A DNA stretch of 64,000 nucleotides from the NCBI RefSeq assembly GCF_057098645.1, contig NZ_CM169472.1; one strand, 5' to 3'. This document shows, piece after piece, positions 51,501 through 54,500 of the stretch. Every line of letters starts with the position of its first letter. Position 1 is the first letter of the stretch. The position numbers are program-made.

Positions 51501-54500
51501 GTCGTGATAATCACCGCCGCCAGCGCCTTTTTCTGCTGTCGCACCGCCAGTAAACCAGGCGCGAACCTGTTTAATTTTTGGTAGGGTCATGATGTTCTCC
51601 ATTGTTATGAGGCTTGTAAGTCAAAGGGACTTTTCCATCCCAACAGACGTGAAATATCCCTGGCGCAGGCAATGGCCTTGCCCGCCAGATAATCACGGTA
51701 TTCTTCATTGATTTGTAAGCGGGTACCGACCACCGAGATCGCAGCGGTAAGCTCGTTATTGGCGTTAAACACCGGCGCAGCGACACAACGGACATCGGCG
51801 TAATCTTCGCCGTTGTCATAGCTCCAGCCCTGACGGCGAATACGCGCCAGTTCTTCGTGAAGTTGCTGTGGATGAGTAATCGTTGTGGGTGTCGCCTGCT
51901 CCCAGACCAGCCCTTCGATAATACTTTGCTGTACAGTTGCAGGTTGCCAGGCAAGCAGGCATTTACCTATTCCGGAGCGATAAAGCGAAAGGCTTTTTCC
52001 TTCATGTGAACGCACGCTGATAGTGGCTGATGACTCCACTTTCAAAATGTAATAAGCGCTGCCGTTATCAATAATCCCCAGGTGACATAACAGCCCGGTG
52101 GTATCCATCAGTTGCGTCAAACGCGGTCGAGCCAGTTCCCGGAGATCCATCTTGCTTAACGCATGACCGGAAAGCTCCACCAGTTTGGTCCACAAACAAA
52201 AATTTTCCTGGTGATCAAGGCTAAGAAAACGCTGACGCCTGAGTTCATTAAGCAGCAAATAGGCCGTGCTTTTAGGGATCCCCAATGTGTCAATGATCGT
52301 CGCAGCATTACAGGGGCCAATGCGGGCAATCAAATTGAGAATATCAATAGCCCGTGTCAGGGCGGGAACTTTGCTTGATTCCAACATACTGGACTCCAGT
52401 CTTAGATACTGGAATCAGTCTCGTTGCTCAGGGGGAGTAAAATTGTGAAGCGCATCAAATCCCGCTCCTCGTCCAACGGACTGGAGAAATTACGCACAAA
52501 TTTGTGAATCAGCGCACGGATTTTTTTTATTGAGTACAACAGGTTGGACAAATTTTGCCGGAGGGGGAATGTGCCGGTGCAGTAAACCGGCACAGAGTGG
52601 CGGAATCAGACGGAGAAGGTCATGGACTCAACAACCTCAATCCAGCCATGCTCACTGGCAATGTCCTGGCCGTTTAACCAACGGCGTAGCATATTCAGTG
52701 CCATCATTGCGCACACTTCCTGACGGATAGCCAGGCTGTAGCGTGTAGTACTGAAACGCACACGCAGAGCGAAAGTGCCGTCTGGCGTGGCTAGCGCAAA
52801 GTTGAGATGCTCGTTCTCGAAACCCGAAACAGCCAGTGCCAGCCCGGCAAAATGGTTGGCCCGCCGTTCTGTAATCCAGTGCGCAGTTTGCGCCAGGGTT
52901 TCTTCCTGTGAAGGAACCACTTCACACGCCAGCAGTGGAGCACCTGCGCGAGAAAGTTGCAAAGCCAATAAACCACCGGTGAATTGCTCGCTCAACGTCA
53001 GGCTGAACTGGCGGTTTTGCAATTCGCGACTGATCTGCGCGGGCAGTCCTTCGGTGCCTTCGAAAATCACGCTCTGTCCGGCAACACGTTTAACGTCCAG
53101 CCACAGTTTTTCCATCGCCTGTTGCTCGCTTGCCGGTCCGGTGAGTTTCAGTTCGATGATCGGCATTGAGGAGCGATAGCCCATTGTTACCCCCGGCGGC
53201 AGTTGTAGAGTGTCCAGGCTTTGTGCCAGATCGCTTTCCGAACGACCAAAGGTAGTTAAACGCAGACAAACCGGCGGCTGTGGTAAAGAAAAACGCTCGC
53301 GCAGACGCGGCAGGATTTCGTGCTCGACCATCACCTTAAATTCTGACGGTACGCCGGGAGTAAAGAACATCAGGCAACGATTAAGCTGCACGGCAAAACC
53401 ACAGGCGGTGCCTACCGGGTTATTGATAAATTCAGCACTGGCAGGCAGCTCCGCTTGTTTACGGTTGCTCGGTGCCATTACTCGTCCACGTTCGTGGAAA
53501 TAGCGTTCCATCTCTTTGAGCCAGGCTTCATGCAGCACCAGGCCTTCACCTTTTGCTGTCGCAGCGGCGAGTGCGCTTAAATCATCGCTGGTCGGTCCCA
53601 GCCCGCCGTTAACGATCAGCACATCGGCGTGCTGACTACGTTCGCGAAGAATGGTGACTAAGTCATCAAGGTTATCCCCCACCGTATTGCGGCGAGATAA
53701 TGGCAACCCCTGATGAAAGAAAAAATCGGCCAGCCAGGCAGCGTTAGTGTCAACGATTTGCCCGTGTAACACTTCATCCCCGGTGGATAGCATTTCCACT
53801 TTTAACATGGTTATCTCCTGCTTTTGTTATCGAATCACTATAACGCAAAGGGAGATAAGGCGTAGTAAGAAACTGAATGGCGCGACAGAATGCCGCGCCG
53901 GAAGGGATCAGAAACTGGCGTTAACCCCAACATACGGGCCGTCAGCCACGGCGTTGTCGCGGTTACCGTCTTTACCCGACAGATTCAGGTAGCGATAACC
54001 CGCCTCAATACTGACTGGACGCATAATGGTGTAACGCGCGCCAGCATTCGCTTCCTCATAACTTTTAATACCGCTGGAGAGTGAATCCGGAGAGTAGTAA
54101 TACTCGCCAAACAAACGGAAGCTGTTGCCAATTTTCCACTGCAAACCACCTCCTACCGCTGCGGCATAACCTTCATCGCCGTAATTCGGGTTGGTGTAAA
54201 CGCCTTTTCCGCCAACGGTCGCCATTAACGGCCCGAGAGGCAGATTCAACCCCAGCCCCACGCCCGCGACGTCACCGTCGTCGTCGTTATGTGTCCAGTT
54301 ACCGCTTAACGCCAGGCCCGTCGATTCAGTCCCAAAACCGACACCAATATTGGTGTATTCTTTACCCGCCTGGCCGCTGATGCTCATTGCATTGACCGAT
54401 GCAGAAACCAACAGCATTCCGGCCAGACCTGCTAGCGCAATTTTTTTCATTATCCCCTTTCCCACAAGCAATTAATCAAAATTCCCAAAGCTGCGGGATT

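What the first reader, a model, noticed from the sequence alone, without database searches (positions are those of the whole stretch)
52380..52420. Palindrome covering the rhmR ribosome-binding site, with a nearby 8-bp direct repeat
Immediately 5' of the rhmR ATG the minus strand reads ACTGGAGTCCAGT, a 13-bp near-perfect palindrome that contains the GGAG Shine-Dalgarno. The octamer ATACTGGA recurs 20 bp further upstream (plus-strand 52386..52393 and 52406..52413). This could be an autoregulatory operator for the IclR-type RhmR or an RBS-sequestering hairpin, but it is speculative.
Basis: inference. Interest (0 to 1): 0.2.

Follow-up and report, generated by a model that had tools for sequence, protein, structure and literature searches.

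The report
Predicted RhmR operator at rhmR start
The small palindrome and repeat in front of the E. coli rhmR gene are real, but they are fragments of a larger, strongly conserved set of binding sites for the RhmR repressor that was already predicted by comparative genomics in 2021, so this is an ordinary regulatory region.

Summary
ACTGGA-G-TCCAGT lies at 52400..52388 on the minus strand, just 5' of the rhmR (yfaX) ATG at 52387. ATACTGGA occurs at 52386-93 and 52406-13. Taken alone, each is at chance level.

They are pieces of a 42-bp block, -30..+12 relative to the ATG, that is almost invariant in 21 orthologous rhmRDTA loci from about 12 genera while the flanks diverge. The symmetric unit that is conserved is not the 13-bp palindrome, which is perfect in only 8 of 21 with uncompensated changes. 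It is an 18-bp IclR-type site, AGTCCAGTATGTTGGAAT, centred on the start codon. Its TCCA-N6-TGGA core is kept in 21 of 21.

Suvorova & Gelfand 2021 list exactly this site for b2248, with two more at -99 and -163. All three are present in the window.

RNA hairpins show no covariation. Two conserved CRP-like boxes place the predicted transcription start near 52410, which would make the block a promoter-proximal operator.

Verdict: the operator reading is supported, the hairpin reading is not, and the site is already predicted in the literature but has not been tested experimentally.

The parts
51605..52387 (-). rhmR (yfaX) coding sequence, an IclR-family regulator and first gene of the rhmR-rhmD-rhmT-rhmA operon
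   Evidence: ORF. Pfam HTH_IclR plus IclR_C. RefSeq annotation yfaX. The rhmRDTA order is kept in all 20 related loci.
52388..52400 (-). It is a composite of the Shine-Dalgarno region and the left half-site of O2.
   Evidence: I14. Perfect in only 8 of 21 orthologues, with uncompensated changes.
52394..52397 (-). Shine-Dalgarno GGAG, 6 nt before the ATG
   Evidence: Read directly from the sequence. Invariant in 21 of 21.
52378..52395 (-). O2: 18-bp IclR-type site AGTCCAGTATGTTGGAAT (core TCCA-N6-TGGA), centred on the start codon and reaching into codon 4
   Evidence: Listed for b2248 at -7 in the PMC8222616 supplement. Core kept in 21 of 21. PWM score 20.4 bits, second best in the window. Third positions of codons 2-4 have zero entropy, against 0.9-1.9 bits at most of codons 7-30.
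52398..52415 (-). O3: candidate weaker tandem site ATTCCAGTATCTAAGACT, centre 20 bp upstream of the O2 centre.
   Evidence: PWM 6.7 bits, rank 56 of about 64,000 positions. The left half and the GA of the right half are invariant. The 20-bp spacing matches the family norm of 19-21 bp (PMC8222616). Not listed in that paper.
52376..52417 (-). The full conserved 42-bp block (-30..+12), bounded by the inverted repeat TGATTCCA / TGGAATCA
   Evidence: I5. Per-column conservation. The outer inverted repeat is perfect in 18 of 21. The 65 bp around it are at least 99% identical in 3,352 E. coli genomes.
52417..52422 (-). Predicted weak -10 hexamer GAGACT (nAnACT in the orthologues), implying a transcription start near 52410 and a leader of about 23 nt
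   Evidence: Inference. A, A, C and T are invariant. The hexamer lies exactly where a class II CRP site centred at 52451.5 would place it. The consensus scan found no promoter, and no experimental start was found.
52444..52459 (-). Proximal CRP-like box TTTGA-N6-TCACA, centre 52451.5
   Evidence: TGA and TCACA are invariant in 21 of 21 while the 6-bp spacer varies. yfaX is listed as a CRP genomic-SELEX target (PMC3105977).
52470..52487 (-). O1: 18-bp site TCTCCAGTCCGTTGGACG (TCCA-N6-TGGA), exactly 92 bp upstream of O2
   Evidence: Listed for b2248 at -99. Exact core at the same position in 14 of 20 loci. Found as repeat D1.
52503..52518 (-). Distal CRP-like box CGTGC-N6-TCACA (TGTGC-N6-TCACA in most genera), 59 bp upstream of the proximal box
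   Evidence: Conserved columns 2-6 and 14-18 of alignment A1. Inference.
52533..52550 (-). O0: 18-bp site TGTCCAACCTGTTGTACT
   Evidence: Listed for b2248 at -163. Present in 21 of 21, including the four loci with a different upstream gene. Best PWM score in the window.

Best explanation
The palindrome and the direct repeat are fragments of the promoter-proximal operator of the rhmRDTA operon, which encodes L-rhamnonate catabolism.

Proposed binding: the IclR-family regulator RhmR, probably as a dimer of dimers, binds O2 (an 18-bp site centred on the start codon) together with O3 (a weaker site or external half-site repeat 20 bp upstream). Together they form a 42-bp block bounded by TGATTCCA / TGGAATCA. 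Two further sites, O1 (92 bp upstream) and O0 (about 155 bp upstream), flank two CRP boxes.

Proposed effect: with the predicted class II CRP promoter (start near 52410), O3 plus O2 cover about -7 to +35. Bound RhmR would then block open-complex formation or promoter escape and so repress its own gene and the three catabolic genes. An effector, presumably L-rhamnonate or 2-keto-3-deoxy-L-rhamnonate, would release it. CRP-cAMP would supply activation.

Why the 13-bp palindrome exists: the Shine-Dalgarno (T)GGAG happens to be the complement of the half-site core TCCA that follows it.

Shown here: the sequence anatomy, the cross-genus conservation, the match to the published prediction and to the family's motif type, and the lack of RNA covariation.

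Inferred: RhmR as the binder, repression as the direction of control, the transcription start, tetramer binding, and the effector.
For: - The 42-bp block is nearly invariant in 21 orthologues with 70-97% RhmR identity, while the adjacent leader and spacer are close to random.
- TCCA-N6-TGGA sits at the same two positions in the related loci and almost nowhere else in about 10 kb each. It is enriched in the window, 4 against 0.71 expected.
- Synonymous sites of codons 2-4 are frozen.
- The block and O0 persist in four loci where the upstream gene is not yfaY, so they travel with the operon.
- PMC8222616 independently lists -163, -99 and -7 sites for b2248 and its orthologues, including Salmonella, Klebsiella and Tolumonas. 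That paper also describes the group 1 IclR motif GKTYCRY-W3-4-RYGRAMC, tandem sites 19-21 bp apart, and external direct half-site repeats in PcaU, PobR and HmgR.
- RhmR has HTH_IclR plus IclR_C domains, and its recognition helix is invariant across the orthologues.
- Both left half-sites are TCCAAT instead of TCCAGT in two lineages (L014, L017); in L018, L015 and L016 both differ from TCCAGT but from each other too.
- The other high PWM hits in the window lie inside long ORFs.
- The related IclR regulator SL1344_3500 (XynR) acts by repression (PMC12445098).
- yfaX is a CRP SELEX target.
Against: - I found no binding, footprint, ChIP or expression data for RhmR.
- The transcription start is not known experimentally, and the consensus scan found no sigma-70 promoter.
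- O3 is a weak match (6.7 bits) and was not called by the published study. Its conservation could partly reflect -10 and start-site constraints.
- The conservation of GGAG, ATG and the first codons is confounded by translation and coding constraints.
- A site centred on the start codon lies outside the usual -20..-80 zone for IclR sites.
- The upstream sites O1 and O0 could mean activation rather than repression.
Confidence: 0.75

Rival explanations
1. RBS- and start-codon-sequestering mRNA hairpin. UGAUUCCAGUAU (-30..-19) pairs with AUGUUGGAAUCA (+1..+12), with an inner ACUGG/CCAGU stem over the Shine-Dalgarno. An alternative is AUUCCAGU pairing with ACUGGAGU. Either would limit rhmR translation.
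For: The 56-nt segment folds to -15.9 kcal/mol, z = -2.8, with 1 of 200 shuffles as good. 93-95% of cells are pairable across the orthologues. The frozen synonymous sites in codons 2-4 would fit a 3' arm.
Against: There is no covariation. All measures are at or below the shuffled means, and substitutions break pairs as often as they keep them, for example at columns 107/146 and 124/134. High pairability is expected for any set of repeated half-sites. In the 161-nt context z is only -1.8. The predicted start near 52410 removes most of the 5' arm, and the remaining leader folds no better than shuffles, z = -0.6. The G-to-A changes in both TCCAGT copies create A-C mismatches with ACUGGA.
Confidence: 0.07
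2. The same conserved sites are bound by RhmR, but as an activator or dual regulator as with PobR, PcaU or MhpR. O1 (about -67.5) and O0 would recruit RNA polymerase or CRP, and the start-codon site would be secondary. Alternatively the sites belong to a different transcription factor.
For: Sites upstream of the core promoter interleave with the CRP boxes. Many IclR members are activators (family knowledge, PMC8222616). O1-O2 spacing is fixed at 92 bp in the 14 of 20 loci with an exact O1 core; O0-O2 varies 155-158 bp.
Against: The strongest and most invariant sites overlap the predicted -10, the start, the leader and the ATG, which are repressor positions. The sugar-acid relatives XynR/SL1344_3500 and KdgR are repressors (own knowledge for KdgR). 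The motif type and its co-occurrence with rhmR across genomic contexts point to RhmR as the binder.
Confidence: 0.13
3. There is no dedicated element. The conservation reflects only the core promoter, Shine-Dalgarno, start codon and N-terminal codon constraints, and the palindrome and repeat are chance.
For: The 13-bp palindrome and the 8-mer repeat are each at chance frequency. GGAG, ATG and the codons have their own constraints.
Against: The invariant positions extend well beyond these signals: TGATTCCA upstream, and zero-entropy synonymous sites in codons 2-4. The same TCCA-N6-TGGA motif recurs at -99 and, in related form, at -163. The pattern is enriched against shuffles.
Confidence: 0.05

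Closest known systems
Predicted binding sites of the b2248/SSO_2309 (YfaX/RhmR) orthologous group in Suvorova & Gelfand 2021 (PMC8222616, supplementary site table)
   Same: The sequences and positions are identical: -163 TGTCCAaCCtGTTGTACT, -99 TcTCCAGtCtGcTGgACg and -7 aGTCCAGtatGTTGgAaT, with spacings of 64 and 92 bp. All three are present in the window at 52550..52533, 52487..52470 and 52395..52378.
   Different: The paper does not list the site 20 bp upstream (O3), the 13-bp palindrome, the CRP boxes or a promoter. The window strain has a 1-nt shorter A-run, so O0-O2 is 155 bp rather than 156. The published sites are computational predictions only.
IclR-family group 1 operators (GKTYCRY-W3-4-RYGRAMC), and tandem or three-box sites such as those of PcaU, PobR, HmgR and TtgV
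   Same: The half-site cores TCCA and TGGA are 10 bp apart centre to centre. A second site or half-site lies 20 bp away on the same face. The palindrome-plus-external-direct-repeat layout is the family pattern (PMC8222616). The 42-bp extent equals the TtgV tetramer operator; that figure is my own recollection of Lu et al. 2010, which I could not read here.
   Different: The main site is centred on the start codon, not in the usual -20..-80 zone. The outer positions of the consensus are only partly matched (13 of 18). Oligomeric state and binding are untested.
IclR repression of aceBAK through two separated boxes (Yamamoto & Ishihama 2003, cited in PMC8222616)
   Same: A promoter-proximal site plus a distal upstream site are used by one IclR-type repressor. 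This comparison rests on my own knowledge.
   Different: The motif type differs: the IclR box TGGAAAT-N-ATTTCCA has the opposite half-site orientation. In this locus there are three or four sites interleaved with CRP boxes, and nothing has been tested.

Membership tests
IclR-family transcription-factor operator (group 1 motif of PMC8222616) | A cognate IclR-family regulator is encoded at the locus | tested here: met
   RhmR matches HTH_IclR (E 7e-9) and IclR_C (E 6e-63). Its nearest solved relatives are IclR, KdgR and AllR.
IclR-family transcription-factor operator (group 1 motif of PMC8222616) | A palindromic site matching GKTYCRY-W3-4-RYGRAMC | tested here: met
   O2, AGTCCAGTATGTTGGAAT, matches 13 of 18 positions, including all 10 core positions KTYCR/YGRAM (compared by eye with the consensus). 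TCCA-N6-TGGA is enriched in the window.
IclR-family transcription-factor operator (group 1 motif of PMC8222616) | The site is conserved at orthologous loci while the flanks diverge | tested here: met
   the O2 core is kept in 21 of 21, O0 in 21 of 21, and the exact O1 core in 14 of 20 loci.
IclR-family transcription-factor operator (group 1 motif of PMC8222616) | A tandem second site 18-22 bp away (tetramer binding) or an external direct half-site repeat | tested here: inconclusive
   O3 lies 20 bp away. Its left half is invariant, but its PWM score is only 6.7 bits, rank 56 of about 64,000, and it overlaps the predicted -10 and start.
IclR-family transcription-factor operator (group 1 motif of PMC8222616) | Physical binding by the regulator and effector-dependent release | not testable with these tools
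   I found no EMSA, footprint, ChIP or SELEX data for RhmR.
RBS-sequestering mRNA hairpin (translational control element) | Base pairs are maintained by compensatory changes across orthologues | tested here: not met
   the covariation score is below the shuffled mean, 2 and 0 pairs show double changes, and the observed breaks are uncompensated.
RBS-sequestering mRNA hairpin (translational control element) | The structure is more stable than shuffled sequence within the actual transcript | tested here: inconclusive
   z = -2.8 for the 56 nt that include the upstream arm, but z = -0.6 for the leader from the predicted start. The true start is unknown.
CRP-dependent class II promoter | A TGTGA-N6-TCACA box that CRP binds | tested here: met
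   TTTGA-N6-TCACA is invariant in its key bases in 21 of 21. yfaX is among the CRP genomic-SELEX targets (PMC3105977).
CRP-dependent class II promoter | The box is centred at -41.5 from a mapped transcription start | not testable with these tools
   No experimental start was found. The -41.5 geometry is inferred from the conserved nAnACT hexamer.

The most novel reading that the evidence does not exclude
The 42-bp block may work at two levels. As DNA it would be the RhmR operator. Once transcribed, its repeated half-sites would fold to mask the Shine-Dalgarno and AUG, keeping RhmR translation low. In that case operator symmetry, RBS and the first four codons would be co-constrained in one sequence.
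Probability: 0.07. Interest if true: 0.35.

Novelty: already known. Interest (0 to 1): 0.15.

Why it matters
RhmR (YfaX) is still annotated as a putative regulator, and its operon has no experimentally defined promoter or operator. This analysis gives a concrete, testable map: four candidate RhmR sites, two CRP boxes and a predicted transcription start. That map would let someone design EMSA or footprint probes and reporter mutations directly.

It is a routine IclR-type repressor and operator arrangement. The key site has already been predicted in the literature, so it does not change current understanding.

Tried and rejected
They are therefore rejected as evidence in themselves.
- RNA hairpin models A (12 plus 5 bp) and B (8 bp): no covariation.
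- Consensus sigma-70 and terminator scan of 52300..52700: no promoter was called. The one terminator-like hit is inside the rhmR coding sequence on the wrong strand.
- Sigma-54 promoter, prompted by the RpoN SELEX peak in PMC8743547: I saw no -24/-12 GG..GC motif by eye and did not pursue it further.
- Experimental transcription start. The Cappable-seq supplement is truncated before 2.36 Mb. The SMRT-Cappable-seq supplement has no yfaX entry. The Thomason 2015 and Lu 2010 papers are not held.
- Literature on RhmR binding: none found. 'RhmR' in PMC3870299 is an unrelated LacI-family protein of Chloroflexus. PMC12445098 gives no motif.
- Reading the 13-bp palindrome as an IclR group 2 site (TGRA-N7-8-TYCA): the spacing is N1, so this is rejected.
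- Other PWM hits in the window (33325, 1786): both lie inside long ORFs and are treated as chance.

Full report
**Observation.** The window is E. coli. It is 100% identical to strain O145 RM9872 over the 1.5 kb tested. It is also identical to K-12 MG1655 from -60 to +15 of yfaX.

rhmR (yfaX, b2248) is the minus-strand ORF 51605..52387. Upstream of its ATG the minus strand reads TGATTCCAGTATCTAAGACTGGAGTCCAGT|ATG|TTGGAATCA. It is a perfect 6+1+6 palindrome and contains the GGAG Shine-Dalgarno. The octamer ATACTGGA is at plus-strand 52386-93 and 52406-13, as stated.

Alone, neither feature is unusual. The window holds 22 such palindromes against about 16 expected, and 87 short-range 8-mer repeats.

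**Wider anatomy.** The repeat search found a third copy, TCCAACGGACTGGA, at 52472-85. It also found an outer 8-bp inverted repeat, TGATTCCA/TGGAATCA, that reaches into codons 2-4.

The common form is TCCA-N6-TGGA. It occurs 4 times in the window against 0.71 expected, and 0 of 100 shuffles reach 4. Two of the four are here, 92 bp apart.

**Conservation.** Twenty loci encoding RhmR orthologues (70-97% identity) were fetched. They come from Escherichia, Citrobacter, Kluyvera, Klebsiella, Trabulsiella, Atlantibacter, Mixta, Kosakonia, Phytobacter, Prodigiosinella, Cedecea and Pantoea. All carry rhmR-rhmD-rhmT-rhmA. Four of them lack yfaY upstream.

In the alignment the stretch -30..+12 is almost invariant, while the bases just upstream (-53..-35) are close to random. 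Specific counts:
- TCCA-N6-TGGA across the start codon is kept in 21 of 21.
- The same motif exactly 92 bp upstream is kept in 14 of 20 loci.
- The motif is almost absent elsewhere in the roughly 10-kb loci.
- Third codon positions of codons 2-4 have zero entropy, against 0.9-1.9 bits at most of codons 7-30.
- The 13-bp palindrome is perfect in only 8 of 21. Its arm changes (ACTGGA to ATTGGA or ACAGGA; TCCAGT to TCCAAT, TCCAGC or TCCATC) are not compensated.
- The 8-mer repeat is identical in 15 of 21. Two of these lineages have TCCAATAT in both copies.
- The outer inverted repeat is perfect in 18 of 21.

**Prior knowledge.** Suvorova & Gelfand 2021 (PMC8222616) reconstructed IclR-family motifs by comparative genomics. 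Their supplementary site table lists three sites for b2248 and its orthologues in Shigella, Citrobacter, Salmonella, Enterobacter, Klebsiella and Tolumonas. The sites are -163 TGTCCAaCCtGTTGTACT, -99 TcTCCAGtCtGcTGgACg and -7 aGTCCAGtatGTTGgAaT, with spacings of 64 and 92 bp.

These correspond to window 52550..52533 (O0), 52487..52470 (O1) and 52395..52378 (O2). Its right arm is that site's left half-site. Its left arm is the Shine-Dalgarno plus the end of the neighbouring site.

The paper's main text makes several relevant points:
- IclR sites fall into group 1 (GKTYCRY-W3-4-RYGRAMC) or group 2 (TGRAACA-N1-2-TGTTYCA).
- Over half of the orthologous groups have tandem sites 19-21 bp apart, which fits tetramer binding.
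- PcaU, PobR and HmgR have an extra external direct half-site repeat.

O2 fits the group 1 core. The 13-bp palindrome, with its N1 spacing, fits neither group.

**O3.** I built a symmetric PWM from O0, O1 and O2 of all the orthologues. In the window it ranks O0 and O2 first and second. The two intervening hits are inside long ORFs.

The 18-mer ATTCCAGTATCTAAGACT (52415..52398) is centred exactly 20 bp from O2. It scores 6.7 bits, rank 56 of about 64,000. Its left half and the GA of its right half are invariant.

It is therefore a plausible weak tandem site or external half-site repeat. The published study did not call it, and this part is my inference.

**Promoter context (inferred).** Two conserved boxes fit CRP: TTTGA-N6-TCACA (52459..52444) and C/TGTGC-N6-TCACA (52518..52503). 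Their key bases are invariant and their spacers variable. yfaX is among the CRP genomic-SELEX targets (PMC3105977).

A conserved nAnACT hexamer (52422..52417) lies where a class II CRP site at -41.5 would place the -10. This gives a transcription start near 52410 and a leader of about 23 nt.

On that numbering O3 plus O2 span about -7 to +35, O1 is near -67.5 and O0 near -131. The consensus scan called no promoter, and I found no experimental start.

**RNA alternative.** The 56-nt segment can fold into a 12-bp stem that sequesters the AUG, plus a 5-bp stem over the Shine-Dalgarno (-15.9 kcal/mol, z = -2.8). Three results weigh against it:
- Counts on the 21-sequence alignment show no covariation for this or the alternative 8-bp hairpin. 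All measures are at or below the shuffled means, and the breaks are uncompensated.
- The leader from the predicted start folds no better than shuffles, z = -0.6.
- High pairability is expected for any array of inverted half-sites.

**Mechanism.** The best-supported reading is that RhmR, which has HTH_IclR and IclR_C domains and an invariant recognition helix, binds O2 with O3. These sites overlap the -10 edge, the start, the leader, the RBS and the start codon. Binding there would repress rhmRDTA, including rhmR itself.

O1 and O0 would act as auxiliary sites around the CRP boxes. An effector from the L-rhamnonate pathway would relieve repression. Related sugar-acid IclR regulators act as repressors (PMC12445098).

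Binding, the direction of control, the oligomeric state and the effector are all untested.

**Novelty and verdict.** The operator idea is right in substance. The element is a standard IclR-family arrangement, and the central site is already in the literature as a prediction. What this analysis adds is small: the O3 site, the CRP and promoter geometry, and the explanation of why a palindrome appears over the RBS. Interest is low.

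Noticed in passing
window 52366..52430 and 51500..53000: About 27% of complete E. coli genomes (1,448 of 5,426) lack the 65-bp rhmR 5' segment. In some genomes yfaY directly abuts the aldolase gene, which indicates a deletion of rhmR-rhmD-rhmT.
   Followed up: partly
L015, L016, L020 about 165 bp upstream of rhmR; window 52533..52550: In Prodigiosinella, Cedecea and Pantoea the O0 site is a perfect 16-bp palindrome, GTACAACCTGTTGTAC. These three loci lack the -99 site. The GTACA half-site differs by one base from GTCCA.
   Followed up: partly
window 52523..52530: The A-run between O0 and the distal CRP-like box is 1 nt shorter than in K-12 (AAAAAAAA against AAGAAAAAA). 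O0-O2 spacing is therefore 155 bp here, against 156 bp in K-12 and 157-158 bp in other genera.
   Followed up: yes
window about 52600 (yfaY-rhmR spacer): A published genomic-SELEX screen reports an RpoN-holoenzyme peak (34% intensity) assigned to the yfaY-yfaX spacer (PMC8743547). I saw no -24/-12 sigma-54 motif by eye.
   Followed up: partly
window 52570..52594: A perfect 9-bp inverted repeat, TGTGCCGGT/ACCGGCACA, lies about 12 nt after the yfaY stop. On the transcribed strand it is followed by TTCCCCC rather than a T-tract, so it is not a canonical intrinsic terminator.
   Followed up: no
window 52495..52506: The 12-bp palindrome CACAAATTTGTG overlaps the right half of the distal CRP-like box. 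It is present in Escherichia but not in the other genera.
   Followed up: no
L014, L017, L018 (Kosakonia, Phytobacter): The RhmR recognition helix reads YLIL instead of YLLL in exactly the lineages where the O2 left half-site is TCCAAT and the O3 left half-site is TCCAAT or TCCAAC rather than TCCAGT. This may be protein-DNA co-variation, but it rests on a single clade.
   Followed up: no
L016, L020 at the rhmR start: In Cedecea and Pantoea the first ATG is lost (CTA or ATA) and codon 2 is ATG. TCCA-N6-TGGA is kept with the same spacing, so the motif is conserved independently of the exact start-codon position.
   Followed up: partly
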